This document shows, piece by piece, positions 2,711-62,476 of a DNA stretch of 64,000 nucleotides (within the stretch, counting starts at the first letter, position 1; each line of letters begins with the position of its first letter). The position numbers were made by a program, and so were the translations under genes. The notes beneath the pieces are model-generated. The model was not told the DNA's origin and made no database searches. It worked only from the letters and a program-made list of their open reading frames with translations. Source of the DNA: Chiloscyllium plagiosum (taxonomy: Eukaryota); contig NC_057753.1 of NCBI RefSeq assembly GCF_004010195.1, forward strand, positions 3,565,514 through 3,629,513, written 5' to 3'.

Positions 2711-3091
2711 GCCTTCATGTCAGCCATATCCACTCTTCCTGCTTATGCATGTATCTATAAAGATGCATCTTAAAATCTCAAATCCATTTATTAGTACATT
2801 TCATAATACAAATGCTGAGCTGGCCTTTGCAGCTGAAATCAAACGTCCGAAGTAGAATCATCTCAAGGCAAAATATCTGTGCAATACTAGCCCTATGTAT
2901 GACAAATGCAGTTACTTTGTAATGGACTTGTCAACACTGAATACAACCTTGCAGCACATCAAACTTCACATCACTGTTTTGAACAAAGGTTTGCATGTCA
3001 AATCTTCTTTAAAAATCCTAGAAAATGGGAAAGCTGATTCTGATCAGAACCTCAAATGAGCTGATTGTGACTTACTCTACCTTTCTTAAAG

Positions 3092-20211: not shown

Positions 20212-21128
20212 CTATTTGCAAAAATGAAATACTTTGACAAAGTATCTCAGGATGTATCTAACCCCATTCGTTAACTCTTCTCTGAATTTTCTTTGTGTTC
20301 CAGCGTAAATAAAAGGATTGATGCAAGAGCTCAATAATTGTAACATATACCCACATTGCTGGAGAATGAATATAGAATTGCGATTACCTGAACCTGAGGA
20401 ATACGTTGTGTTTGCAATTCGGACATAAAGCATCGTCACAAAAGATAATAAATACAATACAATGAAGCTAGCTGAGATCGCAATTAGCAAAACAATAGAC
20501 TTTCTCCGCTTTTCCATCTCTGGGTCAATCAGATTCGCTCCATTTCTCTTGGTCCAAAGTCTCCTACGTGCTTGATTGGTCACTCGAATGTGTTTGACAG
20601 TCAGAGCATTGAGCAGCAAAATCAGAATGAATGGGAGGAAAGGGGTTAATATGGAACGTATCCAGTCATAAGCGATCCATGCTGGAAAGGTATAAATTAT
20701 ATCTTTTATGTTGCAGAACCAAGGTATATTGTCCACTATATATCTAGGTTCCAATTCAAAGTAGACGAAAATATTTTTTACGCAGCTGAGCATACACACG
20801 GTTCCTATGATGCGTGATGCCATTTTCTTGGTGCAATATTTTATTTTCAGTTTCTGACAGGAAATAGATATAAATCGATCAACAGTAAAAACTACCGTTA
20901 ACCAGGCAGAACTGTCAATTGCTGCGATATTTAAGGCAGAACGAACACTGCACACTGGTGTGATAGACAGGAAACTGGATGAGAAATAAATCCCAGCAAT
21001 CCGGTTTAATATTACAACTGTTATCATAACCAGAAGATCTGTCACAGCCATGGAAACCAGGTAATATGTGATACACCCAGTGAGACCACTTCTGCTTCGA
21101 GACAAAATCACGATCGCAGCAACGTTAG
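20212..21128 (-). CDS. GPR139/GPR142-like class A GPCR gene A, exon 2 (TM1 end to C-terminus)
   Basis: Acceptor tcattattacAG|CT at 21130-21129. Open frame ANVAAIVIL..YYLVSMAVTDLL..PVCS..TVDRFISI..PWFC..PFLPFILILLLN..SCINPFIYAG, ending at TAG 20214-20212. Spliced product 328 aa. Confidence 0.93.
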
Positions 21129-24576: not shown

Positions 24577-24646
24577 CTGGAACTCCGATCACTGCAACTA
24601 CGGGATAGTAAATAGTAAATAACAGGCCTGATGGCACTTGGTGCAT
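24577..24646 (-). CDS. GPCR gene A, exon 1 (70 nt): MHQVPSGLLFTIYYPVVAVIGVP+G
   Basis: aaaATG at 24646, 23 codons + G, donor G|GTAGAA. Phase 1 joins CT of exon 2 to give GVP-ANV. Same length and phase as exon 1 of genes B and C. Confidence 0.88.
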
Positions 24647-24697: not shown

Positions 24698-24735
24698 CTT
24701 ATAGCATATTAAAGGCTCCTGGGACTTAAGGAGTT
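24698..24735 (-). promoter_or_regulatory. Gene A proximal promoter: conserved 23-bp motif (O/E-like site) and TATA-like box
   Basis: Minus strand AACTCCTTAAGTCCCAGGAGCCT (24735-24713), then TATAAG (24703-24698). An E-box CAGCTG lies at 24785-24790. Confidence 0.6.
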
Positions 24736-25559
24736 TGTTTGATTTTTTGCATGAATTAAAGCGATTGCCACAAACAGGTTAGTACAGCTGATGCTTGGCA
24801 GGATTTCAGGTTTGATTGAATAGAATGTTTACCGCTTCATGGGAACAAAGAATGGCTTATCATGAAACATCCAGAAACGACTGAATTATCGTAGTAATAT
24901 TGTGCACAGATATACAAACTGTCTATATACTGTGCAACGTCAAAGCAGTGGTTCTCACTGTTGACCACATTTAATAAGTAATAACATTCTTATGGAGAAT
25001 TAATCTGTTTTTCACTTCAAGTCATTTCTTTGTCGACGTAATTGCTGATTAGTTGCAACATGTTTCCAGATCTCGCTCAGACCTTTTATTCCCCAGCAGT
25101 ACAATTCCTTTGGCCCTCGATGTTAAGCCGATATTTTATTCTACTTTAAGGTAAGCCTAACCTAAATGCCCTTCATTGTACTATCTTCCATGTGCCTATC
25201 AAAGAGTCGCTTAAATATCACCAATGCATTTGACTCTCCTACCAATGCTGGCAGTGAATTGCATGCACCTCCCACTCTCTGCGTAAAGAACCTACCCCGA
25301 CATCACTCCCAAACCTTCCTCTATTCGCAATAAAGTTATGCCCCCAATGATCGATATTTTCATCATTTACAATCATTTTAATGCAAACGTGTCTGCAATT
25401 ATTGCAGATAGGTCCAGTCTAAGATAATTACATTTACCGTGTAAAGGATCTGTTCCTTAATAACATATTCGATATGGCCTTTACCTCGGGGCCTTCCTAA
25501 TGGTCAATGTGGAAAGTGCCAGCTCACCATGAACAGGTGACAACACTGTCATGTTCATG

Positions 25560-27194: not shown

Positions 27195-30100
27195 AAGAAA
27201 ATTACAGCACAGGAACAGGCCCTTTGGTTCTCCAAGCCTGCGCTGATCCAGATCCTCTATCTAAACCTGTCACCTATTTTCGAAGGATCGTATCCCTCTT
27301 TTCCCTGCCATTCATGTGTCTATCTAGATACATCTTAGATGATGCTATCATGCCCGCCTCTACCACCGATGCTGGCTATGCGTTCCAGGCACTGACCACC
27401 ATCTGTGTAAAAACCTTATCAAGCATATTTCCCTGAAATGTTTCCACTCTCACTTTCATGTCGTGACAGCTAGTAATTGTGTCCCCCATTATGGGAAAAA
27501 GCTTCTTGCTATCCACCCTGTCGATACCTTTCATAATTTTGCAGACCTCAATCAGGTCCCTACTCAGCCTTGTCTTTCTCATGAAAATATTCATAATCTA
27601 CTGACCCTCTCTTCATAACCAACGCTCTCCATACCAGGCAACATCCTGATGGACCTCCTCTGCACCCTCTCCAAAGCACGCTCATCCTTTTGCTGATGTA
27701 GTGACAGAAGCAGTACGCAGTATTGCAAATGTGGCCGAATCTTGTACAACTGTAACATGATCTCCCAACTCTTGTACTCAAAACCCCACCTGATGAAGGT
27801 AAGTATGCTGTATGCCTTGTGACCACTCTATTGACCTGCGTGGCCACTTTCAGGGTACAATGGAGCAGAACACCCAGATCTCTCTTTACATCAATTTTCC
27901 CCACGACTTTTCCGTTTACTGTATAGTTCACTCTTGAATTGGATCTTCCAAAATGCATCACCTCGCTTTTTCTCGGATTGAACTCCAACTGCCATTTCTC
28001 AATCCAACTCTTCGATCTATTTTTATTCTGCTGGATTCTATGACAGACCCCTTCATTACCGCTACTCCAACAATCTGAGTGTTATCTGCAAGCTTGCTAA
28101 TTGGACCACATATTTATGTCATTTATGTCTATCACAAAAACCAGTTGTCCCAGCACGGATCACTGTCGAACAATACCGGTAACACTACTCCATTTTGAGA
28201 AACTACCTTCCATTATGACTCTCTGTTTCCTGTTGCCCAGCCAGTTCTTTATCCATCCAGCTAGCACACCCTGGGCCTCCTGCGACTTCTCTTTCTCAAT
28301 CTGTCGACCATGGGAAACCTTAACAAACATCACACTGCAGTCCATGTATATGACATCTACAGTCCTTCCCTCCGCAAACAACTTTGTCACTTCATCAAAG
28401 AATTCCATTAAGTTGGTAAGACATGAACTTCCCTGTACAAAACCATGCAACCTAGATAAACCCATTTTCCCTTCGTACCTTCTCCAGTAGTTACCTACCA
28501 TTGACGTCAGGCTCACCGGTCTATAATTACATTGATTATGCCTGCCATCCTTCTTAAACAAGAGGACAACATTAGCAATTCTCCACATTGTCTCACCCCT
28601 GTTCAAGGACCTGCAAAGATATCTGAAAGCCGTCAGCGTTTTCTTATCTCACTTTCCTCAGTAAGATCCGATCTGGACCTGGGGACTTAATGCCTTTTAG
28701 AAAACTCAACACTTACTCCCTCCTTATGCCGACTTTAACTACAGTAATCAAACATCGATCCTCAAAATCCGTCATACTCTCTCCGATGCAAAGTAATCAT
28801 TAAGAATCTCACCCATTTTCTCTGACTTAACGCATAACTTTTCTCCCTTATCCTTGAGTGGGCCAACACTTTCTCTAGATACCCTCTTGTTTCTAACACA
28901 TGAATAAAAGACTTTGGGATTTTCCTTAACCTTGTTTGCGAAATGTATTTTATGAACACTTTTAGCTCTCTTAATTCCTCTTTCCAGATTGGTTCTACAT
29001 TTCTGATATTCTTTCAAAGCCTCGTCACTCTTCAGTCGACTAGAAAGTATGTATGCTTCTTTTATCTTCTAAACTGGTTTCAAAATGTCAACTGTCATTC
29101 ATAGTTCCCTAACATTGCCATTTCTGTTCGTCATTTTCACAGGAACATGTCTCTCCGGCACTCTAATCAATCTCTCTTTCAAAGGCTCCCACAAATCAAA
29201 TGCGGATTTACAAAGAAAACAACATAGAAAAGAACAGCACAGAACAGGCCCTTTGGCCCACGATGTTGTGCGGAGGGTTATGTAAAATAAAATAACTTAA
29301 ACTACGCATTCCTCAACTCATTTCTATCCATGTGCATGTCCAGCAGTCGCTTAAATGTCCCTAATGACTCTACTTCCACCACCACCGCTGGTAACATATT
29401 CCATGCATTCACAAATCTCTGCGTAAAGAACCTTCCTCTGACGTCCACTCTATACCTTTCTCCTAACATCTTAAAACTATGACCCCTCGTACCAGTCAAT
29501 CCTGCCCTGGGGAAAAGTCTCTGGCTATTGACTCTATCTATTCCTCTCATTATTTTGTACACCTAGATCAGGTCACTTCTCTTCCTGCTTCTCTCCTGAG
29601 AGAAAAGTCCGAGCTTATTCAACCTTTCTTCATAAGGCAAACACTCCAGGTAGCATCCTGGTAAACCTTCTGTTCACCCTCTCCAAAGCCTCTGTATCTT
29701 TCCTACAGTAGGGCGACCAGAACTGGACACAATATTCCAAATGTGGTCTCACCAGGGACTTGTAGAGCTGTAGCAAAACCTCACGGCTATTAATCGCAAC
29801 CCCCCTGTTAATGAAAGCTAAAACACCATATGCTTTCTTAACAGCCCTATCTACTTAGATGGTGACTTTGAAGGATCTATGTACTTGCACACCAAGAACT
29901 CTCTGTTCCTCCACACTGCCAAGAATCCTATCTTTAATCCCATATTCAGCTTTCGAGTTCGACTTTCCAAAATGCATCACTTCACATTTATCCTGGTTGA
30001 ACTCCATCTGCCATTTCTCAGCCCAGCTCTGCATCCTGTCGATGTCGCGCTGCAGCCTGCAATAGCCTCGATACTATCGACGGCACCACCAACCTTTGTG

Positions 30101-33100
30101 TCATCTGCAAACTTACTAACCACCACTCAACCTCCTCGTCCAAGTTATGTATAACAACTACAAAGAGCAGAGACCCAAGAACAGAACCCTGCGGACCCCA
30201 CTCAACGCTGACCTCCAGGCAGAATACTTACCATCTACAACCACAGTCTGCCTTCTGTCAGCCAGCTAGTTCTGAATCCAGATAGCCAAACCTCCCTGTA
30301 CCCCATATTTCCTGATTTTATGAATGGGCCTACCATGGGGAACCTTATCAAATGCCTTTTTGAAGTCCATATACATTGCATTCACTGCTCGACCTTTGTC
30401 GACCTGTCTTCTCACCTCATCAAATAATCAATGAGATTTGTGAGGCATGCCGACTACCTTTAATCACGCCATGCTTTGCCAAATAGTCATAAATCCTATC
30501 CCTCAGAATTCTTTCCAAAACTTTACTGACCACAGACGTAAGACTGACTGGTCTGTAATTGCCAGGGATTTCTCTATTACCCTTCTTGAAAAGAGGAACA
30601 ACATTGGTATGACTCCCGTGGAGAGTGAGGAGCCAACGGCTTAGCAACCTCCTTTCTCGATTCCCGGAGCAGCCGAGGATAAATCTGGATTGGCCCTGGG
30701 GACTTATCAATCTTAATGTTTTCCAAACTTTCCAGCACATCAACCCATCGATCTTCATCTGGTCAAGCTTGTATTCCAGCTCCTCAAAATTCTCATTCAC
30801 AACGGTGCCCCTTTCCTTAGTGAAAACCGAATCAAGAAACTCATTTAAGACTTCCCCAATCTGCTCAGACTCCACACACATGTTCCCTGGTCGGCCCTAC
30901 TTTCTCTCTGATCATTCTCTTATTCCTCACGTATGAGTAAAATGCTTTTGGGTTCTCCCTCATCCTTCCTGCCAGGCCTTTCTTGTGCCCCCTTCTGGCT
31001 CTCCTCGGTCCGTTTCTGAGCTCCTTTCTAGCACGCCTCTAATCATCGAAAGCTGTGCTAGATTCTTTCTTCCTCCACCTTACGTATGCTGCCTTCTTCC
31101 TTTTGACAAGAAGCTCCTCTGTTCTCGTCATCCAAGATTCCTTAATCTTACCCATTCGTACCTGTCTTGAGAAACAAATTTATGCATCACTCACAACAAC
31201 TGCTTCTTAAATACTCTTCACATGTCTGCTGTGCTGTTTCGGTGGAGCAATTGATCCCAGTCTGTACTCCCCTACTCCTGTCTGACAGCATCATAATTTC
31301 CTTTTCCCCAATTAAATACCTTCCCTTGGTAACTGCTTCTTTCCCTCTCCAAGGCTATAGTAAATGAGAGGCAGTTGTGAGTACTGTCACCTAAGTGTTC
31401 TCCCACCGTGAGATCTAACACCTGTCCTGGCTCATTGCTGAACTCCAAATCCAAAATGGCCTCTCCCCTCGCCTACATACTGAGCAAGGAAACCCTCCTG
31501 AACGCACCTGACATGAACGGCTCCATCCAAACCATCTGGACTTAGGAGGTTACAGTCGATATTGGGAAAGTTGAAATAACCCAAAACAACAACCCTGCTA
31601 CATCTGCATTTTTCCAGAATCTGCCGCCTGTGAGTTCCTCAATCTCTCTACTGCTATTCGGGAGTCTGTAGAAAACACCCAATGAGGTATCTGCTCCCTT
31701 ACTGTTCCTAACTTCCACCCATACTGACTCAGTAGACAAACCTCCCTCGAAACCTTCGTTTCTGTACCTGTGATGCACTCTCTGATTAGCAATGCTAAAC
31801 CCTCTTCACTTTTTCCACCCTCCCTGTTCCTTTTAAATGTTTTAATCCTTGGAACATCAAGCAACCATTCGTGCCACTGTGAGACCCACGTCTCCGTTAT
31901 GGCCACAACATCATAGCCCCAAGCACTGACCCATGCTCTAAGTTCATCACTCTTATTTCTGAGACACTCATTGCATTCAAGCAGACGCACTTTAACCGAT
32001 CCCTTTGTTTCATTGTGTGAGCAACCTTCCCGATAGATTCACGACATCCTTCCACTGCCCCGTCTGCAACTGCCCCCCCCCCTCAGACATGTGGCTCTGA
32101 TTACCATCCCCCCTGCCAAACTAGCTTAAACCCTCCCGAATTACCATTGCAAAATAATCCCTTACTGAAACGTCAATCATCTGGCCAGCTTCATTCCGCA
32201 ACATGTCCCGTTTCCAAGTTTTTGTATTTTCATGCTGCTGTATAAAATTCTCCTGGAAGCTCCATATTGACCTCTAACACTAACTGAATCCCAGTCAATG
32301 TTGAGAAAATTTAAATCTCCTATCACCACCACCCTGTTGCTCCTGAGCCTTTCCATAATCTGTTTACATATTTGTACTTCTATTTCATGCTCACCGTTGG
32401 GAGACCTGTAATCCAGCACCAAAACTGTTATTGCACGCTTCCTATTTTTAAACTCTGTCCATATTGCCTAACTACGATAGTACTTCATAGTGCTTTCCTT
32501 CAGTGCTGCTATGATATCCGCTCTGACCAGTAATGCAACTCCTCCACCCCTTTTACTTCCCTCTGTATCCCGTCCGAATCATCGGTATCCTGTCAAATCA
32601 TGCCCTTCCCTCAAGCAAGTCTCAGTAATTGCAATAACGTCATGCACCCAGATACTAAACCAAGCCCTAAGTTCATCTACCTTACCTCCGACACTTTTTG
32701 CATTAAAACAAATACACCTTAGGCCACCTGTCACTTTGCGTTCATCATCTGCTCCCTGCCGACTCACACCCTTAGTCAGGCTGATTTCATTATCTGTTTC
32801 CTTACAGGCTTTAGTTACGACTTTTTTTACTGTCCACTAACCTCCTCATTTGGTTTCCCGGCCCTGCCACATTAGTTACCCCTCCCGAAAAGCGTTAGCA
32901 AAAGCAAACCCTAAGATATTGGTTCCTGTCCAGCCCAGGTGTAGACCGTCCTCTTTTTTTAAAATAGTACCCCATCCCCCAGAACCAGTCCCAATGTCAC
33001 AGAAATACGGACCCTTCCCTCTGGCATCATCTCACAAGCCACTCACTCACCCTACCTATTCTTTCATTTCTGCTCTGACTACAACGTGGCACTGGTTGCA

Positions 33101-38442: not shown

Positions 38443-38491
38443 AACTAATTAACTCCCTGGAGCCTGCAATGCATATGTCACCCTGTATAAA
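38443..38491 (+). promoter_or_regulatory. Gene B proximal promoter: homeodomain + O/E-like motif and TATA box
   Basis: AACTAATTAACTCCCTGGAGCCT (38443-38465) and TATAAA (38486-38491). Confidence 0.65.
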
Positions 38492-38542
38492 TGTAGACAC
38501 GTTTCGATGATTAATAGAAAGTGCTCAGAACATCTGTCAGAA

Positions 38543-38612
38543 ATGCATGAAATACCAAAAGGATTGGTCTTTGCAATTTACTATCCAGCCCTTGCAGCTA
38601 TCGGTCTGCCAG
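38543..38612 (+). CDS. GPCR gene B, exon 1 (70 nt): MHEIPKGLVFAIYYPALAAIGLP+G
   Basis: gaaATG at 38543, donor G|GTAAAA at 38613. Joins exon 2 to give GLP-ANL, matching the YY..L..GLPAN TM1 of GPR139-type receptors. Confidence 0.9.
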
Positions 38613-40850: not shown

Positions 40851-41761
40851 CTAATCTGGCAGTGGTTGCAATCCTGTCTCAAAGAACCTGTGGACTCTCT
40901 CGATGCATCACTTACTATTTGGTGGCAATGGCAGTAACAGATCTCCTCGTCATGGTCACAGCTGTAATTTTAAATCGGATTGTTGGGATTTATTTCCCAT
41001 CCAGTTTCCTTTCGATCACACCAGTGTGCAGTTTTCGTGCTGCATTAAATATGGCAGTTATTGACAACTCCGCCTGGTTAACCGTTGTATTTACCTTTGA
41101 TCGATTTGTGGCTATATCTTGCCAGAACCTGAAACTAAAATATTGCACTAAGAAGGTGGCAGCGTGGGTGATAGGAGTAGTGTCCACCCTCTGCTGCATG
41201 AAAAACAGTTTCTTATATTTTGAATTTGAACCTAGGTACGTAATTAACAATATACCCTGGTTTTGTAGCATAAAGGATATATATTATACATCACCTGCCT
41301 GGGCTGCATATGACTGGATCCGTTCTATTTTAAATCCGTGTCTCCCTTTCATTCTAATTTTACTACTAAACGTGCTGACCATCAGACGCATTATCTTGGC
41401 TAATAGAGCCCGTAGAAGACTCCAGCTTCAGAACAATGGAGAGAATCACTGTGACCCAGAGATGGAAAAGCGGAAAAAGTCCATTATTTTACTCTTTGCC
41501 ATCTCTGGCAGTTTCATTCTGTTGTATTTGTTATTTTTCCTGAATATTCTTTATGTTCGTGCTGCGAATATTACTTACTCCTCAGGATCCACTTTGCGTA
41601 ATTCTACATTTTACTTGGAACAAACCGGATATATGCTCCAGTTACTAAGCTCCTGCATCAACCCATTTATTTATGCTGTGACGCAGAGCAAAATTAGAGA
41701 CGAGTTAAAGCATGGAGTGAGATTTGCTTTGAACGCCTTCATTAAAATATTCAAATATTGA
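40851..41761 (+). CDS. GPR139/GPR142-like class A GPCR gene B, exon 2
   Basis: Acceptor tttcctacAG|CT at 40849-40850; 911-nt exon. YYLVAMAVTDLL, PVCS, TFDRFVAI, PWFC, PCLPFILILLLN, SCINPFIYA. Spliced product 326 aa. Confidence 0.95.
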
Positions 41762-46551: not shown

Positions 46552-47360
46552 TTTGGCCATTATTAGTAGCGTGAATATAAACCGGACTGCTGGTATTTAT
46601 CTCTCATTCAGCTTCTTATTCTTCACAACGATATGCATTCTCCGCGTTGTCCTCAGTTTTTCAGTAATAGATTGTTCTGCCTGGTTAACGGTCGCTTTCA
46701 CCTTTAATCGATTTGTGGCCCTTTGTTGCCAGAAGCTGAAACTAAAATACTGTACAGAAGTAACAACAAAGTGGGTTATAGTCTGCACACTGAGTTGTTT
46801 TGAAAATGCGATTTTATATTTTATATTTGAATCGCTGTACACAGTTAATAACGTACCCTGGTTCTGTGTTACAATATTAGCATTTAGTACCTCACAGGCC
46901 TAGGCCGCATATCATTTGATTCATTCCACTCTCGCACCCTATCTTCAATTCATTCTGATTTTACTGCTCAATGCTCTGACAGTCAGACACATTTTAGTGA
47001 CCAATCGAGCCTGCCGGAGACTCCTAATCCTGAACAATGGAGAGGATCATTGTGATCCAGAGATGAAGAATCGGAAAAAGTCCGTTATCTTACTCTTTGG
47101 CATTTCCGGTAGTTTTCTTCTGCGTTATTAGGTATTTTTGTAACCGTGCTTTATGGCCGAATTGCAGAAGTTACTTATTACTCAGCTTCTGACTATAGTA
47201 AGTTATCCAACATCCTGGGAGAATCCGGGTACATGCTTCAGTTTCTTAGTTCCTGCATCAATCCCTTTATTTATGCGGGGACCCAGAATAATTCAGGGAC
47301 GTGTTAAAGAACGGGTTAAAACATCCGTGGAGATTGCTAGTAAAACTTTTAAAGAGTTGA
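46552..47360 (+). pseudogene. GPR139-like GPCR pseudogene (psi2, paralog of gene C), 5'-truncated
   Basis: Aligns to 61660-62476. DRF>NRF, W>TAG at 46901-46903, TAG at 47129-47131, 1-nt deletion near 47290. The start of exon 2 is missing and abuts the Rex1-like fragment. Confidence 0.93.
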
Positions 47361-51420: not shown

Positions 51421-52434
51421 GCGTCAATTCAGATCCGCTATCGAAACCTGTCGCCTATTTTATAAGGGACTGTAACCCTTTGCTCCGTAACGATTCATGT
51501 ATCTCCCTAGATTCCTCTTAACTGATGCTATTGTGCCCGCCTCTACCACCACCCTTGCGTAAAGAACTTTCCATGCATATCCCCTCTAAGATTTCCCCTC
51601 TTACTTTGAACTCATGGCCCATACTCTGGGAAAAGCTCCTTGCTGTCCACCCTGTTTTTAACTCTCATGATTTCGTAGACCTCAAACAGGTTCCCCCCTC
51701 AACCTCCTTTCTAATGCAAATAATCTTAGTCTATTCAAACTCCCTCCTTAGGTAGCGCCTCCATACCAGGCAGCATCCTGGTGAACCTACTCTGCACCAT
51801 TTCCAAAGTATCCACATCGTTTTAGAAATGTGGAAACCAGAACTCGACAAATATTCGAAATGTGACCGAACGAAAGTCTTATACAAATGCATCATGACCT
51901 GCCAACTCTGGTACCCAACACCCTATCCGATTAAGGAAAGCATGCCAAAAGCCTTCTTGACCACTCTATTGACATGTGTGGCCACCTTCAGACAACAATG
52001 TATATAAATACGCAGATTTCTCTGTTCATCAGTTTTCTCCAAGGCATTTAAATTTACGGTATAGTTCTCTTTTTAATTGGACCTTTCAAAATGCATGAAC
52101 TCATGTTTGCCCAGAGTGTACGTCATCTGCTATTTTTCTGCCCAACTGTCCAATCTATTTATATTCTACTGTATTCTCTGACAGTCCTCTTCACTATCTA
52201 CTACTCCATCAATCTTAGTGTCATTTGAAACGTTGTTTATCAGACCACCTATACTTTCCTCCAGTCATTTATGTATATCATAAACAACAGTTGTCCCAGT
52301 ACTGATCCCTGTGGTAAACCACTGGTGACAGGTCTCCATTTTGAGAAACTCCCTTCCAGTGCTATTCTCAGTCTCCTGTTGCCCAGCCAGTCCTTTATCC
52401 ACTTCGCTTACACATCCTGATCCCCATGCGACCC

Positions 52435-53001
52435 CAGCAGATAAAGGCAGAATGATGGTCATCCTAGATAAATCAGATTACATCCAAAAAGCACAACAAC
52501 TACTTGCAGATATCAACACCTACCAAATGAAGGAATTTGACCCCACACCACAACTCACCAATAGGATAAATAACACACTAAGGAATCTACATAAAAAAGG
52601 ACAGATAACCAGAGCTGACCTACAAAGAATGAAACCGGAAAGCAACAACACCCCCAGATTCTATGGATTACCTAAAGTACACAAACCAGACATCCCACTC
52701 AGACGCATAGTATCACTACCAGGGACACCATCATACAAACTGGCCAAAGAACTACAACAGAAACTGAAACACCTGGTCAGCGGATCCAAACACTCTATAC
52801 AATCAACACAGGAATTCTTGGAAATCATCAGAAATATACACATAGACAAAGAAGAAACCAGGACGCTGAACCTATCAACAAAGACGGCACACTTAAACTA
52901 CTGGACTTGTGCCTCACAACACACTTCACATTCAACAACCAGATATACGAACAAATCAACGGAACACCCATGGGATCACCAATCTCGAGACTCATAGCAG
53001 A
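52435..53001 (+). mobile_element. Penelope-like element reverse transcriptase fragment
   Basis: PADKGRMMVILDKSDY..PRFYGLPKVHKPDIPLRRIVS..HFTFNNQIYEQINGTPMGSPIS, diagnostic PLE RT motifs. Internal deletion near 52860; runs into the gap. Confidence 0.92.
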
Positions 53002-53564
53002 NNNNNNNNNNNNNNNNNNNNNNNNNNNNNNNNNNNNNNNNNNNNNNNNNNNNNNNNNNNNNNNNNNNNNNNNNNNNNNNNNNNNNNNNNNNNNNNNNNN
53101 NNNNNNNNNNNNNNNNNNNNNNNNNNNNNNNNNNNNNNNNNNNNNNNNNNNNNNNNNNNNNNNNNNNNNNNNNNNNNNNNNNNNNNNNNNNNNNNNNNNN
53201 NNNNNNNNNNNNNNNNNNNNNNNNNNNNNNNNNNNNNNNNNNNNNNNNNNNNNNNNNNNNNNNNNNNNNNNNNNNNNNNNNNNNNNNNNNNNNNNNNNNN
53301 NNNNNNNNNNNNNNNNNNNNNNNNNNNNNNNNNNNNNNNNNNNNNNNNNNNNNNNNNNNNNNNNNNNNNNNNNNNNNNNNNNNNNNNNNNNNNNNNNNNN
53401 NNNNNNNNNNNNNNNNNNNNNNNNNNNNNNNNNNNNNNNNNNNNNNNNNNNNNNNNNNNNNNNNNNNNNNNNNNNNNNNNNNNNNNNNNNNNNNNNNNNN
53501 NNNNNNNNNNNNNNNNNNNNNNNNNNNNNNNNNNNNNNNNNNNNNNNNNNNNNNNNNNNNNNNN
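53002..53564. other. Assembly gap (563 N)
   Basis: Run of N. Confidence 1.
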
Positions 53565-53649
53565 GCAGGATTTGCTTCTTCTCTGTCCACTTGTCTGTGC
53601 CTGGTTATCCAGCGATATGAAGTGTGCGGGGACAAGCAGTGGACTTGAT

Positions 53650-53945
53650 GTTGTTGTTCTGTTCGCCGAGCTGGAAGTTTTTGTTGGAAACGTTTCGTCC
53701 CCTGGCTAGGCGGCATCATCAGTGCTTGGGAGCCTCCTGCGAAGCGCTTCTTTGATGGGAAGCGGCAGGGACAGACCACTATAAACACCGGAGGAAACAT
53801 CAAAGAAGCGCTTCGCAGGAGGCTCCCAAGCACTGATGATGTCGCCTAGCCAGGGGACGAAATGTTTGCAACAAAAACTTCCAGCTCGGCGAACAGAACC
53901 ACAACAACGAGCACCCGAGCTACAAATCTTCGCACAAACGTTGAA
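53650..53945. mobile_element. Penelope inverted terminal repeat (pLTR palindrome) with two hammerhead motifs
   Basis: Arms at about 53650-53757 and 53798-53905 are reverse complements around a 40-nt spacer. Hammerheads at 53830-53869 (+) and 53686-53725 (-). Confidence 0.85.
53830..53869 (+). ncRNA. Minimal type I hammerhead ribozyme motif
   Basis: GCA-CTGATGA-T-GTCGCCT-agcc-AGGGGAC-GAAA-TG-TT-TGC: core CUGAUGA/GAAA, stem II and a 3-bp stem I. Confidence 0.65.
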
Positions 53946-56900
53946 CCTCAACTTCTCCAACAGCCCACCATGGGGAACCTTATCAAACGGCTTATTGAAG
54001 TCTATGTCTATGACATCTACAGCCGCTCCCTCATCAATCAACTTTGTCACTTCCTTAAAGAATTCTATTAAGTTGGTAAGACATGACCTTTCCTGGACAA
54101 AATCATGCTGCCTATCACTGATAAGCCCATTTTCTTCGAAATTGAAATAAATCCTATAACTCAGTACCTTCTCCAGCAACTTCCCTACCACTGATGACAG
54201 GCTCACCGACCTATAAATGCCTGCATTATCCCCGCTACACTTCTTAAGCAAAGGTCAACGTTAGCAGTCCTCTGCGACCTTACCCGTGTTCAAGGATGAT
54301 GCAAAGATATCTGATAAGATTCCAGCTATTTCGTCTCTCGATTCCCTCAGTAACCTGGGAGATCCCATCCAGACCTGGGGACTTGTAAACCTTAATGTGT
54401 TTTTGAATGCCCAACACTTCCTCTCTCCTTCTTCCCCCTTGTCCTATAGTAATCAAATCTCTATCCCTTGCCTCAGCTACCGCCATTTCCCTCGCCTCAG
54501 TCAATAATAATGCGAAGTACTCATTAAGAATCTCACTCCACGCAGAACTTGCCTCTTATCCTTGAGTAGGCCAACCCTTTTTCTCGTTACCCTCTTGCTC
54601 TTTATATACGAATAAAAGGCTTTCGGATTTTCCTTAACGTTGTTTGCTAAAGATATCTCATGCCCCCATTCAGCCCTCTCAATTCCTCGTTTCAGACTCG
54701 TCCTCCATTCCCAATATTCTTCCAAAGCTTCGTCTTCTTCAGTCGTCCAGACTTATATATGCATCCTTTTTCCTCTTAGCTCATCTCACAATTGCACCAT
54801 TTTTGAACATGGTTCCCAAACCTTATCATTTCTGTGCTTCATTTTCACAGGAACATGTCTCACCTGCACTATAACCAACCTCTCTTTAATAGGCATCCAC
54901 AGTTCAAATGTGGATTTACCTTCAACCAGCTGATCCCAATCCACATTCCCCAGCTCCTTGTAAATTTTGGTATAGTTTGCCTCCCCCCAATTTAGCAATC
55001 TTCCTTTAGCTCCCCCCCATATCTTTGTCCATGATTATTCTCAAACTTACGGAATTGTCATCACTACTCCTAAAATAATCCCCTACGGAAGCTTCAACCA
55101 TCTGGCTGGGCTCATTATCCAATCTCAGGTCCAGAATGCCCCCTTCCCGAGTTGAGCTACTTGCGTACTTCTCTATAAAACCCTCCTAGACGTTCAACAC
55201 GGTGTCAATAAAATTCATCATCCGCCACCTTGGAGTTAATGACGGGCAACATATCATTTTACAATGGTAAATTAGCATTTCAATTTCGTAATCAGGACAT
55301 ATTACGAAATTTCTTTGAAGGGGAACTGCCACAGCCAGTCATTGACCTTGCATTTCCATGTTCACCAACTGAGATATTGCACAGAGACCTGTTAGAAACA
55401 AATTGCAGATATACACAACTGATTGTAGAATCGGAGTGGCACTGCTCATATTGTGACAAGAAGACATCGTTTGCAAGAATTGTTTGTGCTCCTGCTATTG
55501 CCAGGTCTTCCAAGTGTCCAACAATGAATGCATCCAGGACGCAAAATTGCAAGCTACCTCCCCAAAGAAATGCATGAAGAAAATTTTAAGGTATCAGTTA
55601 TGAAAGGGCCTAGGACATGTTCCTGTGAACAGCTGGATAAGGACAGTTTACTCAGATAACTCGATGAAGCACAGTCAAATAAAAAGCTGTGCAGCTTATA
55701 TCAGCAAAGATAACACATGTCCCTAGTGCCAATGGAACACCAGCATGTGCATGATATTCCTAATGGGTTAAACCAGGTGGAAAATGCCGGTCAGATATTT
55801 ATACAATTGCAAAGTGAACTAATGCAATGCCATACATGCTTCTACTTGCTGCTGTAGTCCTTCTGCTAAATTCAGACATGGCTATGGCACATGAGCTGAC
55901 CCATGGGAACAGATTTATACGAAGGATAATGTAGTGGTATTAAAGCATAAATTGATCAATTAAAACATAAATTGAGGAAAGCAGCGATCAATGAATATTA
56001 TTTGATTTGTGTACAAGACAACATGTTAAGAGTAATTGAATGGCGTTGCTTGTATCTGGAAGTGCAGAGTATTTAAATGTCTTCGGTGAAAATAGAAGTA
56101 TGAGGACCAGGAATGCAGAACTGTCCATGGATAACTGAAGAGCCAGGCGATTAGGTGGGACTGGAGTGAACTGAACGTTCGTGCAATGCACGTAAAGCAG
56201 ACTGAAGTCCACGCCAAATCAGACATTACATAACCTGATCTGAATGAAGTATAAAGTGCTATGCTGATCTAACGACACACGTTATGACTTAATATGCGCT
56301 GAACTATTCCTGTTCAAATAATCATATAACACAGAACACAGATTGTTTATGACATTTAAATTGGAGAATACTTATTAAATTGCGAAAATTCTCAGCAGAT
56401 CGGGCAACGTATGGCAATAGATCCTGCCGATTCTGAACGTTAATTCTGTCAATTTTTATTGTTATTTAAAACTGAACTTGACCTTGTTGCTGTGTTGCTT
56501 CCCACACTGACAGTAAACCTTTGTGGTGAATGTATGTATACTGAAAGTTATCAATGTATTTATTCAACATGTTCATGCTCAATTGTAAATTATACGATGA
56601 TCATTGAGTTCACCATTGAGGAGCTTAAAGTAATAGTTCTTTGATTCACGTTGACTTTCACGATATATCTCCTATTTTAATTTAATATTTTGCTAGCGGC
56701 GAGCAAAAGAAAAGCGTGACTAGCATTTTATTGTCTCCATTTGTTTCAATATTGGAAAAAATACAGTTGCAAAAATATCCATTTGATCAGAATACCTGGG
56801 TAAGAACAGTAACAACTTTACAACTTTGCGCTACTTTTCCATCTTTCAATTTGTGCCATCGATGTAACAGGCAAAATCAAATAATTTTCTCCATGGAGAA

Positions 56901-58140
56901 AGACACGAAGAGTAAACGTGACCATCTCTGAACATAGTGACTGACATGCTCAGAACTTTGAACAGAAATGTATTCATTACCAAAAGGCTTAGCGTTTGTC
57001 ATTTACTAAACCTTTCTTTCAACAACAGGGCTTCCAGATATAGATTCTGAGCCAATTGCTAGTTATGGGATTCTTTGCATACCTCTCATTTTCGCATTTT
57101 CATCTAGTACTTCTCCAAGGTGGTGATGTTATTTCCACATCTCAGTGGATCACTTGTCTATTCATAGAACAAACTTTTTTTTAACCTTTAACAGGTATAT
57201 CCGTCACCCACGACGAGCATCACTTCTTCCAACTATCCATTTCAACCCTCCATTTATTCTTTACTACCATAATGAGCCTTCATTACTGTTGCATGTTTCA
57301 CCTTCCTCATAGTGCCATTAAAATGTTTTGAGATACAGTGTGTTCACATTCAAGGTATACGTATCAATAGGCTAACATGCAAACACCATGGTACTCCTGT
57401 CTTAGAATGGCACTATAAACAACAATGTTTTGACTCAGAAGTGACAGGGATACCTTTCAAGCCTGGAAACGCTACGTGCATGACTTGCTTCACACGTTAC
57501 CGTCACCATTTTGCAATACTATCAAATGATTATCTGGAGTCACGCCTCTCTTAAAGTCCATGCAGACCAATTCCTTTCCATTTTACAATTGCCCTTTTCC
57601 CATATTGCTCTCCACATGGAAAGCATTTTGTCTGTCCCGCATGAAATATAAGCTGCTCCCTCAGTGTCAAACTCTGCTCCTTACGTTTGTCAACCTCTCA
57701 GGAGTTCTTGTGATCACTCGTTTTTACTTGTTGAATAAGGGTATTGACGATTGTATTTTCTCTAACTACGTCGCCAAACTGTATATAAGCCTTGAAATTT
57801 CCTACCAGCTCTTTACTGTACGAGGTAAACTGCTGTACTCAGAGATATGTTTCTATACCAGAATGAAAAAAATTGAATAAAACAAGCAGAATGCAATGAG
57901 CAAGTGAGGTGATAATTTACAACAGTTTATATTATTCAAATAACCTCTTTTGTGCACTTATAACCTCATGTCTGGAATCATAGCATGTTTATCGTGTGGA
58001 AGCAGCTCATGTGGCCCATTGAGTCCTCACCGAACCGAACGGGAATCCTTCCCATACCCACACTCACACTTTCCCCTTCCTCCAACTCTATCTCTGCGAC
58101 CTTGCATTTCCCGTCGTCAATTCACTGAGCCTTAAAACCG

Positions 58141-58425
58141 CTAATTAGGCAGTGATTATGATACTGGCCCAGTGAATGTGAGCCATCTCCAGATATGCCG
58201 CGGTATATTGGGTCTCCATGGTTTCAACAGATCTGGGCATTTTCATAGCTGTGATAGAAATGCGTATTTTATATGTTTATCGTCCATTAACGTTTTTATC
58301 ATTCAATTCTACTGTAGTTTGGATTTTAAACTGATAAAGGCATTCATAGATTGTTCTGTCTGATGGTAGCTGTTTTCACTTTTGATGGTTCGATAGCTGC
58401 ATGCTTCCAAAACAAGAAGAAAAAG
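58141..58425 (+). pseudogene. Highly degenerate GPR139-like GPCR remnant (psi3; start of exon 2 to intracellular loop 2)
   Basis: Reads, across frameshifts, AN*AVIMILAQ..RY..YWVSMVSTDL.IFIAVI..RI..VY.P.TFLS..CSL..LI.AFIDCSV*..VAVFTFD..IAACFQN.K.K, colinear with exon 2 of genes A-C. The acceptor is ccg instead of cag. Truncated by a SINE-like head at about 58430. Confidence 0.7.
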
Positions 58426-59115: not shown

Positions 59116-59618
59116 ATGAATTTCTACATAGGTAGACCACTGTATTTTCAACTGAATTAGAAGAATTAAACAATCAAGTTTTCAGTTTATTTGGAAGAGA
59201 TCATGGGTTCATCAGAAAGTACATCGCTTCCTTTGAACTGAAAAACGGATACGAATAAAATTGGTTTCGATCAGCCAGGCAATTATGGGACGTGACTTTT
59301 CCCAGATTTGACCTCTTCGCTGGGCTGCACCGAAGCGTTATTTGGCTAACAATACATCAGCCAGAGAATGAATTTTATTGTAGTGGCAACGAACAAGGGG
59401 AATTCGCAACTTTAAGCTTTAGCATGAGAGGACCACATTATTTCAACCATGAACTGAAGACCCAGGCCGTGGACTTTGAAAAAGAAACGCAGTTAAGGCG
59501 TTTTGCAATCCCTGGACATTTCCCATTCTAGTTCCAGACCATCAAAGAATGGAGAATTGCAGCTGCACCTATCTGTTTTGTTTTGATATACATGGTAGTT
59601 GCTGTAAACGTTTCAACC

Positions 59619-59654
59619 AACTAATTAAACCCCTTGAGCCTGACTCGTATATAA
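59619..59654 (+). promoter_or_regulatory. Gene C proximal promoter: homeodomain + O/E-like motif and TATA-like box
   Basis: AACTAATTAAACCCCTTGAGCCT (59619-59641) and TATATAA (59648-59654). An E-box CAGCTG lies at 59560-59565. Confidence 0.62.
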
Positions 59655-59705: not shown

Positions 59706-59775
59706 ATGCACATATCACCAAAAGGCCTGTTGTTTTCCATTTATTATAATTTTCTTGCAGCTATTGGGATATCAG
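59706..59775 (+). CDS. GPCR gene C, exon 1 (70 nt): MHISPKGLLFSIYYNFLAAIGIS+G
   Basis: gaaATG at 59706, donor G|GTAAAG at 59776. Same size and phase as exon 1 of genes A and B. Confidence 0.9.
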
Positions 59776-61565: not shown

Positions 61566-62476
61566 CTAACTTGGCAGTGATCATAATCCTATACCGAAGA
61601 AGATGTGGTCTCGCTGGATGCATCGTTTACTACGTGGTATCCATGGCGTTAGCTGATCTCTTTGTCATTATTGTTAATGTGATTATAAACCGGACTGCTG
61701 GCATTTATTTCCCATTCAGCTTCTTATTCATCACACCAATATGCAGTCTCCGCGTTGTCCTAATTTACTCGGTCGTAGATATTTCTGCCTGGTTAACGGT
61801 TGCTTTCACGTTTGATCGATTTGTGGCCATTTGTTGCCAGAAGCTGAAAATCAAATACTGCTCAGAAATAACAGCGAAGTGGGTTATAGGGGGCGTCTGC
61901 ACGTTGAGCTGTTTTAAAAATACGTTTACATATTTTATATTTGAACCATTGTACATAATTAATAACGTACCCTGGTTCTGTGTTATAAAATTAATAGTTA
62001 GTACCTCACAGGCTTGGGCCGCATATGATTTGATTCGTTCCATTCTGGTCCCCTGTCTTCCATTCATTCTGATTTTACTGCTCAATGCTCTGACAGTCAG
62101 ACATATTTTAGCGGCCAATCGAGCACGCAGAAGACTTCGTGTCCTGAGCAATGGAGAGGATCGGACTGATCCAGAGTTGGAAAAACGGAAGAAGTCCATT
62201 ATCTTACTCTTTGGCATTTCAGGCAGTTTTGTTCTGTTGTATTCAGTATATTTTGCAACAGTGCTCTATGTCCGAATTGCGAAAGTTACTTATTACTCAG
62301 TTTCTAACTCTCGCAAGTCATCCTTTATCCTGGAGGAAACCGGGTATATGCTTCAGTTTCTGAGTTCCTGCATAAATCCGTTTATTTATGCGGGGACCCA
62401 GAATAAATTCAGAGACGAGTTAAAGAATGGGTTAAGATATCCACAGAGATTGCTTGTACAACTTTTAAAGTGCTGA
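61566..62476 (+). CDS. GPR139/GPR142-like class A GPCR gene C, exon 2
   Basis: Acceptor ctctctgttacAG|CT at 61564-61565; 911-nt exon. YYVVSMALADLF, PICS, TFDRFVAI, PWFC, PCLPFILILLLN, SCINPFIYAG. Spliced product 326 aa. Confidence 0.95.

What the first reader, a model, noticed from the sequence alone, without database searches (positions are those of the whole stretch)
38443..38491. Olfactory-receptor-like promoter motif (homeodomain + O/E + TATA) shared by all three intact GPR139-like genes
Seen: a 23-bp motif ends 65-78 nt upstream of each ATG. Gene A has AACTCCTTAAGTCCCAGGAGCCT (minus, 24735-24713), gene B AACTAATTAACTCCCTGGAGCCT (38443-38465) and gene C AACTAATTAAACCCCTTGAGCCT (59619-59641). 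17 of 23 positions are identical without gaps, while the surrounding non-coding DNA aligns poorly. A TATA-like box follows in each, and genes A and C have an E-box CAGCTG about 50 nt further upstream. Established: vertebrate olfactory-receptor promoters and enhancers use homeodomain sites (TAAT core; Lhx2/Emx2) next to O/E (Olf1/Ebf; TCCCNNGGGA-like, often imperfect) sites. Inference: CTAATTAA one base from YCCCWKGAG is that site pair, so these receptors may be expressed in olfactory or other chemosensory neurons. Gene A has lost the TAAT core but keeps the O/E-like half.
Basis: partly seen in the sequence, partly recalled or inferred. Interest (0 to 1): 0.9.

Follow-up and report, generated by a model that had tools for sequence, protein, structure and literature searches.

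The report
Shared promoter switch of shark receptor family
A short two-part DNA word sits at a fixed place in front of most members of a several-hundred-gene shark receptor family, and it looks like the homeodomain-plus-Ebf word that controls smell-receptor genes in mice, so this unstudied family may be a hidden set of shark chemical sensors.

Summary
The 23-bp block lies at the stated coordinates and 17 of 23 positions are identical. The same genome has 613 matches to a motif-independent exon-1 signature, against 31 for the control. I fetched 100 of them; 84 were usable family promoters, falling into 36 groups with unalignable flanks. In 33 of the 36 groups a CTAATTA-nn-TCCCTGGAGCC element starts about 87 nt before the ATG and about 10-12 nt before a TATA box. 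De novo search finds it as the top motif (19.8 bits; best in distal DNA 9.9). Between recent paralogs the two halves change 2-3 times more slowly than the flanks, while the 2-nt spacer changes at the flank rate. Order, orientation and spacing (within 1 nt) match the published mouse Lhx2/Ebf "composite" of olfactory-receptor enhancers. The second half matches the mb-1 and OMP Ebf sites at 10 of 12 positions. I read it as a selected family-wide proximal promoter module, probably homeodomain plus Ebf/COE. Olfactory expression is untested because no RNA evidence could be obtained. "GPR139-like" is only an annotation label (E = 0.0015 to human GPR139). No paper on this family was found.

The parts
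38443..38465 (+). Gene B composite element (23-bp block). The homeodomain-type half TAATTA is at 38446-38451, the 2-nt spacer at 38452-38453 and the O/E-like half TCCCTGGAG at 38454-38462.
   Evidence: PWM 31.4 bits, best in the window. It matches the published 17-position Lhx2-Ebf composite pattern at 17 of 17 positions.
38486..38492 (+). Gene B TATA box TATAAAT. It lies 41 nt after the motif start, which is 11 nt more than the family norm of 30.
   Evidence: offset 41 in 5 promoters of this subgroup, offset 30 in 33.
38543..38612 (+). Gene B exon 1 (ATG, 70 nt, GT donor at 38613).
40851..41761 (+). Gene B exon 2 (7TM body and stop). The spliced CDS is 326 aa.
59619..59641 (+). Gene C composite element: TAATTA, then AA, then a CCCCTTGAG variant of the second half.
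   Evidence: 22.0 bits; 16 of 17 positions of the published pattern.
59648..59654 (+). Gene C TATA box TATATAA.
59560..59565 (+). CAGCTG E-box upstream of the gene C motif.
   Evidence: Family-wide it is present within 100 nt upstream in 22 of 67 promoters, against 1 of 67 in a distal control.
59706..59775 (+). Gene C exon 1.
61566..62476 (+). Gene C exon 2. The spliced CDS is 326 aa.
24713..24735 (-). Gene A composite element. The TAAT core is lost (CTCCTTAA) and the O/E-like half TCCCAGGAG is kept.
   Evidence: 19.0 bits; 15 of 17 positions of the published pattern.
24698..24703 (-). Gene A TATA-like box TATAAG.
24785..24790 (-). CAGCTG E-box upstream of the gene A motif.
24577..24646 (-). 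Gene A exon 1.
20212..21128 (-). Gene A exon 2. The spliced CDS is 328 aa.
56881..56900 (+). Decayed copy of the element (ATAATTTTCTCCATGGAGAA) in front of a pseudogene. The exon-1 remnant at about 56968-57037 has an in-frame stop and has lost the GT donor. An exon-2 fragment lies at 58137-58301.
   Evidence: (13.1 bits).

Best explanation
The 23-bp block is the core of a family-wide proximal promoter module of a very large, shark-expanded class-A GPCR family. The genome holds at least about 580 exon 1 copies, annotated elsewhere as 'probable GPR139'. The module has three parts. First comes a homeodomain-type site (C)TAATT(A/G). Two weakly constrained bases follow. Then comes an O/E (Ebf/COE)-like site TCCCTGGAG(CC), followed about 10-12 nt later by a TATA box. 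The whole module starts about 87 nt before the ATG, which places it roughly 45-65 nt upstream of the predicted transcription start. Shown here: the module is present at a fixed position in most independent promoter lineages, and it is kept by purifying selection while the flanks have randomised. Its two halves are constrained separately. Inferred: a LIM-homeodomain protein (Lhx2-like) and an Ebf/COE dimer bind side by side, as on the mouse Greek-Island composite motif, and act on the adjacent TATA-bound machinery to give cell-type-restricted transcription. Further inferred, at roughly 40%: the cell type is an olfactory or other chemosensory neuron, which would make this family an unrecognised shark chemoreceptor repertoire.
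For: Family size: a motif-independent exon-1 signature gives 613 genome matches against 31 for the control. All 127 scored exon-2 matches have E <= 2e-118, 112 of the 127 have no stop, and 8131 first-look candidates were not all scored. Prevalence: I fetched the 100 listed exon-1 hits. 86 of them are family-like, and 84 have a full 415-nt upstream region; these form 36 groups. A leave-one-group-out PWM is exceeded in 67 of 84 promoters and 33 of 36 groups, using the 99th percentile of distal and shuffled controls. The motif starts at a median of -87 from the ATG (IQR -87 to -85.5, range -98 to -71). Alignment-free test: TCCCTGGA occurs in 13 of 36 representatives proximally and 0 of 36 distally; TAATTA in 21 against 4. 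De novo EM from 488 random seeds gives CTAATTATCTCCCTGGAGCC at 19.8 bits, against a maximum of 9.9 bits in distal DNA. The tripartite pattern TAATT-N3-TCCCWGGAG-N12-TATAA with up to 1 mismatch gives 69 genome hits against 1 for the control. Selection: median identity of -300..-1 between promoters is 0.62 against 0.60 for shuffles. Across 34 within-group neighbour pairs, differences per site are 0.220 in the flank, 0.078 in the HD half, 0.250 in the spacer, 0.105 in the O/E half, 0.134 in the TATA box and 0.184 in the 5'UTR (core against flanks, Fisher p = 7.7e-11). The motif is decayed in the window's pseudogene. Likeness to known sites: the Sfaktiria composite probe reads TTAATTGATCTCCAAGGAAT. 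The authors' insertion mutants split it between TAATTGA and TCTCC. The composite is described as Lhx2 and Ebf sites 1 bp apart, with a 17-position pattern that gene B matches at 17 of 17 positions and the family consensus at 16 of 17. The mb-1 EBF site AGACTCaaGGGAAT, read on the other strand, equals the shark TCCCTGGAGCCT at 10 of 12 positions. The OMP Ebf site CTCCCTGGGGAC also matches at 10 of 12. Drosophila Collier binds the mb-1 site (passages), so COE specificity is old. OR promoters are AT-rich with O/E, HD and TBP motifs (review passages).
Against: There are no binding data and no expression data, so factor identity and tissue are inference. TAATTA is bound by many homeodomain proteins. 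The second half deviates from the Ebf palindrome TTCCCNNGGGAAT quoted: an A conserved at 0.82 stands where G is expected, and only one half-site is perfect. A subfamily of 10 promoters on contig C48 carries CTAATTGCTCCTGGGAGCC. This keeps a CTCC-NN-GGAG palindrome at fixed distance from the TATA box but moves the best Ebf register by 2-3 nt, which fits a factor centred on that palindrome at least as well as Ebf. The best Ebf register in the main consensus lies 1 nt further from TAATT than in the Sfaktiria probe, if the authors' boundary is taken. The published composite pattern is very loose: 24.4 of 84 shuffled promoters match it somewhere. In mice the composite is enriched in enhancers and depleted from OR promoters. 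The catshark literature names V2Rs as the olfactory family, and the 50 most olfactory-specific catshark genes included no GPCR (passages). The ascertainment covers only exon 1 copies with 0-1 mismatch to my signature, 100 of 613. Three of 36 groups lack the ungapped motif, and a strict two-half regex is met in only 20 of 36 groups.
Confidence: 0.6

Rival explanations
1. The module is a real, selected promoter element, but it is read by other factors. Candidates are a different homeodomain protein together with a dimeric factor centred on the CTCC-NN-GGAG palindrome, or Ebf in a non-olfactory setting such as B cells or other neurons. The family would then be expressed outside the nose, for example in brain, immune cells, gonad, gill or skin.
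For: The 10-mer CTCC-CT-GGAG is a perfect palindrome. The C48 subfamily changes only its central dinucleotide and keeps its distance to the TATA box. The conserved A at 0.82 departs from the Ebf consensus. The closest single match to the second half is the B-cell mb-1 site. The catshark work did not flag any GPCR among the top olfactory-specific genes. True GPR139 is a brain receptor (abstracts).
Against: The side-by-side arrangement of TAATT and TCCC on one strand, within 1 nt of the mouse olfactory composite, is an unusually specific resemblance. A family of several hundred mostly intact tandem GPCR genes is, from general knowledge, typical of chemoreceptors. The family is only remotely related to GPR139.
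Confidence: 0.3
2. The block is not upstream promoter DNA. It would be part of the transcript (5'UTR) or of an upstream non-coding exon, and would act at the RNA level.
For: No transcription start could be mapped. Mammalian OR genes often have upstream non-coding exons (recalled).
Against: A TATA box follows at a fixed 30 nt from the motif start (33 of the 49 promoters in which a TATA-like hexamer was found; 41 nt in 5) and lies about 55 nt before the ATG. The conservation is strand-specific and bipartite, with DNA-site-like cores.
Confidence: 0.05
3. The similarity is a passive relic of gene duplication or gene conversion, or comes from a dispersed repeat, and is not under selection.
For: All copies descend from one ancestor. 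Twelve of the 20 two-mismatch genome hits that I fetched have no exon 1, and most belong to one dispersed repeat that carries a similar 23-mer. Recent pseudogene duplicates (L151, L152, L158) still carry the motif.
Against: Flanks of different groups are at random-level identity while the motif keeps 19.8 bits. Within groups the cores change 2-3 times more slowly than flanks and spacer. Gene conversion would homogenise the flanks too. The repeat shares nothing beyond the 23-mer with the promoters. All 8 genome hits with 0-1 mismatch precede an exon 1.
Confidence: 0.03

Closest known systems
Lhx2/Ebf 'composite motif' of mouse olfactory-receptor enhancers (Greek Islands; Monahan et al. 2017, PMC5608512; pattern in PMC11643329)
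   Same: A homeodomain site TAATT[A/G] is followed on the same strand, after 1-2 bases, by an imperfect O/E site. The Sfaktiria example TAATTGA-TCTCCAAGGA and the shark TAATTA-TCTCCCTGGA share 8 of 10 positions in the second block. Gene B fits the published 17-position pattern at 17 of 17 positions. In the mouse data too the O/E half is often too weak to be called an Ebf motif on its own: 'No Ebf Motif' is recorded for many islands with strong composites.
   Different: The mouse composite sits in intergenic enhancers and is depleted from OR promoters. Here it sits in the proximal promoter of nearly every gene, at a fixed distance from a TATA box. Spacing differs by one base from the single mouse sequence I could read. 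The genes are not ORs. No binding is shown.
Proximal promoters of mammalian odorant-receptor genes (O/E plus homeodomain plus TATA; review PMC12547500)
   Same: Both are AT-rich upstream regions with an O/E-like site, a homeodomain site and a TBP site within about 100 nt of the start. Both serve a very large tandem GPCR family.
   Different: In OR promoters the two sites are not juxtaposed at a fixed spacing, and the motif set varies from gene to gene. Here the spacing is rigid. The coding ATG is in the first exon with a predicted 5'UTR of about 25 nt.
EBF site of the mb-1 (Cd79a) promoter and Olf-1/Ebf site of the OMP promoter
   Same: The mb-1 site AGACTCaaGGGAAT, read on the other strand, gives TCCCTTGAGTCT against the shark TCCCTGGAGCCT, 10 of 12 positions. 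Both have one perfect half-site and a GAG half. The OMP site CTCCCTGGGGAC also matches at 10 of 12.
   Different: Those sites stand alone, without an abutting homeodomain site, and in different promoter contexts.
Human GPR139 (solved structures 7VUG and others)
   Same: It is a class-A 7TM receptor and is the nearest named relative in automatic annotation.
   Different: The phmmer E-value is only 0.0015 at 21.5 bits. GPR139 is a single conserved brain gene (abstracts). The shark family has hundreds of copies.

Membership tests
Lhx2/Ebf composite motif (Greek-Island type) | A homeodomain site and an O/E site side by side on one strand, with the HD site 5' of the O/E site | tested here: met
   Position frequencies are T .86, A .90, A .93, T .93, T .81, then 2 weak positions, then T .89, C .98, C .88, C .95. 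The order is the same as in the Sfaktiria probe.
Lhx2/Ebf composite motif (Greek-Island type) | Stereotyped spacing, with the sites 1 bp apart; a 2-bp insertion impairs the motif | tested here: inconclusive
   Gene B fits the published 17-position pattern at 17 of 17 positions and the family consensus at 16 of 17. That pattern also hits 24.4 of 84 shuffles. Against the one readable mouse sequence, the second block starts 1 nt closer, or the best Ebf register lies 1 nt further. The mouse logo itself could not be read because figures are not held.
Lhx2/Ebf composite motif (Greek-Island type) | Located in intergenic enhancers of OR clusters and depleted from promoters | tested here: not met
   Here the element starts about 87 nt before the ATG, next to a TATA box, in 33 of 36 promoter groups. 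The window has no further strong copy outside the promoters.
Lhx2/Ebf composite motif (Greek-Island type) | Occupied by Lhx2 and Ebf in olfactory sensory neurons | not testable with these tools
   No ChIP, ATAC or EMSA data exist for this species.
OR-type proximal promoter | O/E-like and homeodomain motifs plus a TBP site within a few hundred bp of the start, in AT-rich DNA | tested here: met
   The upstream base composition is A .315, C .199, G .179, T .307. The criteria are taken from the review passages.
OR-type proximal promoter | Drives sparse, olfactory-neuron-specific expression | not testable with these tools
   No RNA holder was listed.
EBF/COE binding site | A variation on the palindrome TTCCCNNGGGAAT (as quoted) | tested here: inconclusive
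   One half, TCCC, is perfect. The other half is GAG(C), with a conserved A where G is expected. The site matches the natural mb-1 and OMP sites at 10 of 12 positions. The C48 variant shifts the register.
GPR139 orthologues | Clear sequence similarity to GPR139 | tested here: not met
   phmmer against PDB chains gives GPR139 at E = 0.0015 and 21.5 bits, and nothing at E <= 1e-5. The name comes from automatic annotation.
Vertebrate chemoreceptor multigene families (general kind) | Hundreds of mostly intact paralogs in tandem arrays, mixed with pseudogenes | tested here: met
   There are 613 exon-1 signature hits against 31 for the control. 112 of the 127 scored exon-2 matches have no stop, and many lie on contig C44. 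The window holds three intact genes and three pseudogene remnants. That this pattern defines chemoreceptor families is general knowledge, not tested here.

The most novel reading that the evidence does not exclude
Sharks, thought to smell with only about 30-40 V2Rs and a handful of ORs, may carry a second, unrecognised chemosensory receptor repertoire of more than 500 class-A GPCR genes. Each gene would carry in its own promoter the Lhx2/Ebf composite word that in mammals is reserved for the enhancers governing one-receptor-per-neuron choice. The composite logic would then predate the split of cartilaginous and bony vertebrates, would have started as a promoter device, and would not be tied to the canonical OR family.
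Probability: 0.35. Interest if true: 0.95.

Novelty: new variant of a known kind. Interest (0 to 1): 0.8.

Why it matters
The accepted picture is that the elasmobranch nose works almost only through V2Rs and that ORs, TAARs and V1Rs are few and largely non-olfactory (PMC11979771 and PMC10116579, passages read). That picture leaves a family of several hundred mostly intact GPCR genes in the same genomes unexplained. A rigid homeodomain-plus-O/E module at a fixed place in their promoters gives a concrete, testable hypothesis for where they are expressed and how. It also offers a natural experiment on the Lhx2/Ebf composite motif, seen here in promoters, at fixed phase with a TATA box, in a non-OR family and about 450 million years from mouse (divergence date recalled). 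If the genes turn out to be expressed elsewhere, the module is still a clean case of a family-specific promoter code kept across hundreds of paralogs. The whole family could then be traced with one reporter.

Tried and rejected
- **Expression.** The look-up of sequencing runs listed no RNA holder. It listed two single-cell RNA runs of the same species as raw reads. So there are no expression or start-site data. This is not evidence either way.
- **Large fetches.** I replaced them with 505-nt stretches located by an exon-1 signature.
- **Exon-1 patterns.** A 35-place pattern with a miscounted gap gave only chance hits, 21 against 1 for the control, none in the family. The corrected pattern worked.
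- **ATG-anchored profile.** An information profile without motif alignment shows only a blurred signal, up to 0.7 bit, because 5'UTR lengths vary. I did not use it as main evidence.
- **Published composite pattern as a genome-style test.** It is too loose: 37 of 84 proximal regions match against 24.4 of 84 shuffles. I used it only for register.
- **Second upstream motif.** Only weak signals appeared, 9.5 bits against 7.7 for the null. These were an A-rich word and AGCAGCAGCTGC.
- **CRE/ATF-like block.** TGAC[AG]TCA between the O/E half and the TATA box is present in only 8 of 67 promoters.
- **OMP gene.** I sought it as a comparison promoter, but Pfam PF06554 found no match in this genome, and the tool's own controls were silent too.
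- **Unreadable sources.** The supplements of the catshark paper could not be read. PMC359693 (Olf-1 site paper) is not held. The logos and alignments of the mouse composite are figures and are not held.
- **Receptor variability profile.** It was invalid because many loci were not oriented as I assumed. I dropped it.
- **Earlier scan notes.** Nothing relevant was found.
- **Literature.** I searched for GPR139 with shark terms, 'GPR139-like', 'coupled receptor 139' with olfactory, shark olfactory single-cell, and cartilaginous fish orphan GPCR expansion. No paper on this family was found.
- **Not possible.** Cross-species promoter comparison could not be done because no other shark genome is reachable with these tools.

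Full report
**1. What is in the window**

The window lies on contig C44 of a 3.56-Gb eukaryotic assembly. It holds three intact two-exon genes. Each has a 70-nt first exon starting at the ATG and a second exon of about 910 nt that encodes the 7TM body.
- Gene A: 24646-24577 and 21128-20212 (-), 328 aa.
- Gene B: 38543-38612 and 40851-41761 (+), 326 aa.
- Gene C: 59706-59775 and 61566-62476 (+), 326 aa.

All three match Pfam 7tm_1, with E-values from 5e-18 to 2e-21. A TATA-like box follows each one. Genes A and C have CAGCTG 50-59 nt further upstream.

**2. The family**

The best database relatives are all shark proteins that NCBI calls 'probable G-protein coupled receptor 139'. The search returned 1577 hits. 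The 120 listed come from at least ten shark genera, and the top identities are 90% and 88%.

The name overstates the relation. Against all PDB chains nothing reaches E <= 1e-5, and human GPR139 scores E = 0.0015 at 21.5 bits.

Within this genome, gene B's exon 2 gave 127 scored matches out of 8131 first-look candidates. All 127 have E <= 2e-118 and 60-100% identity, and 112 of them have no stop. A 35-place signature of the 3' half of exon 1, which does not touch the promoter, has 613 matches at up to 2 mismatches, against 31 for the reversed control. The family therefore has on the order of 580 or more first exons. They lie on C44 and on many other contigs.

I found no paper on this expansion. 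The catshark literature I read (passages of PMC11979771 and PMC10116579) treats V2Rs as the olfactory family and does not mention this one.

**3. Is the motif a family feature?**

I fetched 505 nt around the 100 exon-1 hits that the tool listed: 81 exact and 19 with one mismatch.
- 86 of the 100 have a family-like start of exon 1, and 83 of those 86 have ATG at the expected place.
- Of the 14 I rejected, by eye, six are unrelated DNA, four are a different subfamily and four are probably copies with indels.
- Two of the 86 ran off short contigs and were dropped. That left 84 promoters with 415 nt upstream.

Most pairs of promoters are unalignable. Median global identity of -300..-1 is 0.62, against 0.60 for shuffles. 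Single linkage at 0.68 identity gives 36 groups.

Alignment-free counts on one representative per group:

| Word | Proximal 200 nt | Distal 200 nt |
|---|---|---|
| TCCCTGGA | 13 of 36 | 0 of 36 |
| CCCTGGAG | 13 of 36 | 0 of 36 |
| TAATTA | 21 of 36 | 4 of 36 |
| TATAAAT | 9 of 36 | 1 of 36 |

A de novo hard-EM search from 488 random seeds returns CTAATTATCTCCCTGGAGCC at 19.8 bits, with a median start at -87. The same procedure on distal DNA never exceeds 9.9 bits.

With a PWM built without the group being scored, 67 of 84 promoters and 33 of 36 groups exceed the 99th percentile of distal and shuffled controls (7.2 bits). The start lies at a median of -87 from the ATG, with IQR -87 to -85.5 and range -98 to -71.

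A strict regex that requires both halves is met in 35 of 84 promoters (20 of 36 groups). It is met in 0 of 84 in each of two distal windows, 2 of 84 on the reverse strand and 0.1 of 84 in shuffles.

Genome-wide, TAATT-N3-TCCCWGGAG-N12-TATAA with up to 1 mismatch occurs 69 times, against once for the control.

The three groups without the ungapped motif are:
- a 10-member subfamily on C48 with a one-base-shorter variant (see section 5);
- a pair in which a CT-repeat has replaced the region;
- one singleton.

**4. Anatomy and constraint**

Weighted position frequencies show two cores. The first is T .86, A .90, A .93, T .93, T .81, followed by A .69. The second is T .89, C .98, C .88, C .95, T .75, G .69, G .87, A .82, G .94, then one weaker position, then C .80. 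Two weak positions (.56 and .59) separate the cores.

A TATA-like hexamer starts 30 nt after the motif start in 33 promoters, and at 27-29 nt in 9. It starts at 41 nt in 5, which is the gene B subgroup. That is 11 nt more, about one helical turn. My regex found none in 18 of the 67 promoters.

In 34 neighbour pairs of recent paralogs the differences per site are as follows:

| Segment | Differences per site |
|---|---|
| 5' flank | 0.220 |
| Homeodomain half | 0.078 |
| 2-nt spacer | 0.250 |
| O/E-like half | 0.105 |
| Stretch up to the TATA box | 0.172 |
| TATA box | 0.134 |
| 5'UTR | 0.184 |

Cores against flanks gives Fisher p = 7.7e-11. The pairs were limited to promoters that pass the PWM, which biases slightly towards conservation. 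Only one within-group member failed for that reason.

The footprint is thus bipartite and under purifying selection.

In the window, the pseudogene at 56881-58301 has a decayed motif of 13.1 bits and no TATA box. It also has a stop in exon 1 and a lost splice donor. The four fetched copies with a broken exon 1 all score below threshold, but two of them belong to groups that lack the motif anyway.

The CAGCTG box occurs within 100 nt upstream in 22 of 67 promoters, against 1 of 67 in a distal control. It is a real but minority feature.

**5. What does it resemble?**

Monahan et al. 2017 (PMC5608512; passages and supplementary files 2 and 7 read) describe a composite of Lhx2 and Ebf sites in the Greek-Island enhancers of mouse OR clusters. 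[quoted passage not shown]

Their Sfaktiria probe reads TTAATTGATCTCCAAGGAAT on one strand. Their insertion mutants open it between TAATTGA and TCTCC. A later preprint (PMC11643329, passages read) calls the two sites 'stereotypically separated by 1bp' and gives a 17-position degenerate pattern.
- Gene B fits that pattern at 17 of 17 positions, gene C at 16, gene A at 15 and the family consensus at 16.
- The pattern is loose: 24.4 of 84 shuffled promoters match somewhere.
- Even so, 25 of the 49 exact matches in the 84 proximal regions fall at the motif position.

Block by block, the shark TAATTA-TCTCCCTGGA and the mouse TAATTGA-TCTCCAAGGA share the first block and 8 of 10 positions of the second. 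The shark spacing is one base shorter. If instead the perfect TCCC is taken as the Ebf half-site, the shark site lies one base further than the boundary the authors used. So order and orientation are the same, and spacing agrees within one nucleotide. The exact register cannot be settled without the mouse matrix, which is a figure.

The second half also equals natural Ebf sites. The mb-1 site AGACTCaaGGGAAT (PMC2394523, Methods) read on the other strand matches at 10 of 12 positions, and it is also bound by Drosophila Collier. The OMP promoter site CTCCCTGGGGAC also matches at 10 of 12. Many Greek Islands with strong composites have 'No Ebf Motif' by the stand-alone matrix, so a weak O/E half is normal for composites.

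Two points count against a simple Ebf reading.
- A conserved A stands where the palindrome has G.
- The C48 subfamily carries CTAATTGCTCCTGGGAGCC. This keeps the CTCC-NN-GGAG palindrome and its distance to the TATA box, but moves the best Ebf register by 2-3 nt.

**6. How it most likely works**

Shown: this is a selected, position-fixed, bipartite element next to a TATA box in most promoters of the family.

Inferred: a LIM-homeodomain protein and an Ebf/COE dimer bind side by side and act on the TATA-bound machinery. The 11-nt longer spacer in the gene B subgroup keeps the helical phase, which fits a stereospecific contact.

Further inferred, at about 40%: the cells are olfactory or other chemosensory neurons. 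I could not test this.

The main rival, at about 30%, keeps the promoter function but assigns other factors or another tissue. Passive descent, a repeat origin and an RNA-level role are unlikely.

**7. Specificity of the word in the genome**

Of the 38 genome hits to the 23-nt pattern:
- all 8 with 0-1 mismatch precede an exon 1;
- of the 30 with 2 mismatches, 6 coincide with exon-1-ascertained loci;
- 20 were fetched, of which 8 precede an exon-1 signature and 12 do not;
- 4 were not examined.

Most of the 12 belong to one dispersed repeat that happens to carry a similar word.

**8. Novelty and verdict**

Homeodomain-plus-O/E control of chemoreceptor genes is known. A rigid composite in the proximal promoter, fixed to a TATA box, across hundreds of paralogs of an undescribed non-OR shark GPCR family was not found in print by my searches. 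I rate it a new variant of a known kind.

The site-pair reading is supported at the sequence level. The olfactory inference is open. Interest is 0.8, because a positive expression test would overturn the view that sharks have a tiny olfactory receptor repertoire, and the test is simple.

Noticed in passing
window 56881-58301 (+): A fourth family copy that is a pseudogene. Its promoter motif is decayed (13.1 bits) and it has no TATA box. Exon 1 has an in-frame stop and has lost the GT donor. Only a 165-nt fragment of exon 2 remains.
   Followed up: yes
window 3070-3900 (+) and 46553-47359 (+): Two more exon-2-like stretches, 45-46% identical to gene B and carrying several stops. They are older pseudogenes of the family. 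No clear motif or exon 1 was found upstream; only weak PWM hits appear at 43617 and 43887.
   Followed up: partly
window 27560-30896 (-), 52329-54254; N run 53002-53564: Reverse-transcriptase-like open frames (retroelement remnants) lie between the receptor genes, and there is a 563-base assembly gap.
   Followed up: no
L097-L105, L110, L115, L116 (contig C48 and small contigs): A subfamily of at least 10 promoters carries CTAATTGCTCCTGGGAGCC. It has one base less between the two halves, and the central dinucleotide of the CTCC-NN-GGAG palindrome is changed. The distance to the TATA box is unchanged. This bears on which factor reads the second half.
   Followed up: partly
window 38466-38492 and loci L068, L070, L073, L076-L078: The gene B subgroup has 11 extra bases between the motif and the TATA box (offset 41 instead of 30). 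That is about one helical turn, so the rotational phase is kept.
   Followed up: partly
L139-L149 (contigs C2, C4, C5, C6, C7, C11, C16, C18, C21): A dispersed repeat carries a word very like the gene C motif (for example AAGTAATTCAGCCCCTTGAGCCT), followed by a shared sequence unrelated to the promoters. It accounts for most genome hits that are not next to an exon 1.
   Followed up: partly
L055, L113 (contig C39 and a small contig): In two near-identical copies a CT dinucleotide repeat occupies the place of the motif and the TATA box, although exon 1 looks intact.
   Followed up: no
L045, L130-L132 (contigs C24, C8): A more distant subfamily has a different start of exon 1 (no ATGCA). It still shows a related upstream word, for example TAATTGAATCTCTGGAGGTC and TAATCGACTCACTGGAGGTC, followed by CATAAATA.
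   Followed up: no
L151, L152, L158 (contig C8 and C100525): These are recently duplicated pseudogene copies whose exon 1 has no ATG. They keep a near-perfect motif, as expected for young duplicates.
   Followed up: no
motif +20 to +29 in some promoters, e.g. L051-L054, L047, L048: A TGAC[AG]TCA(GG) block lies between the O/E-like half and the TATA box in 8 of 67 promoters. From memory it resembles a CRE/ATF-type site.
   Followed up: partly
whole genome G000: The Pfam model of olfactory marker protein (PF06554) found no match. The tool's own control genomes were silent too, so this says little.
   Followed up: partly
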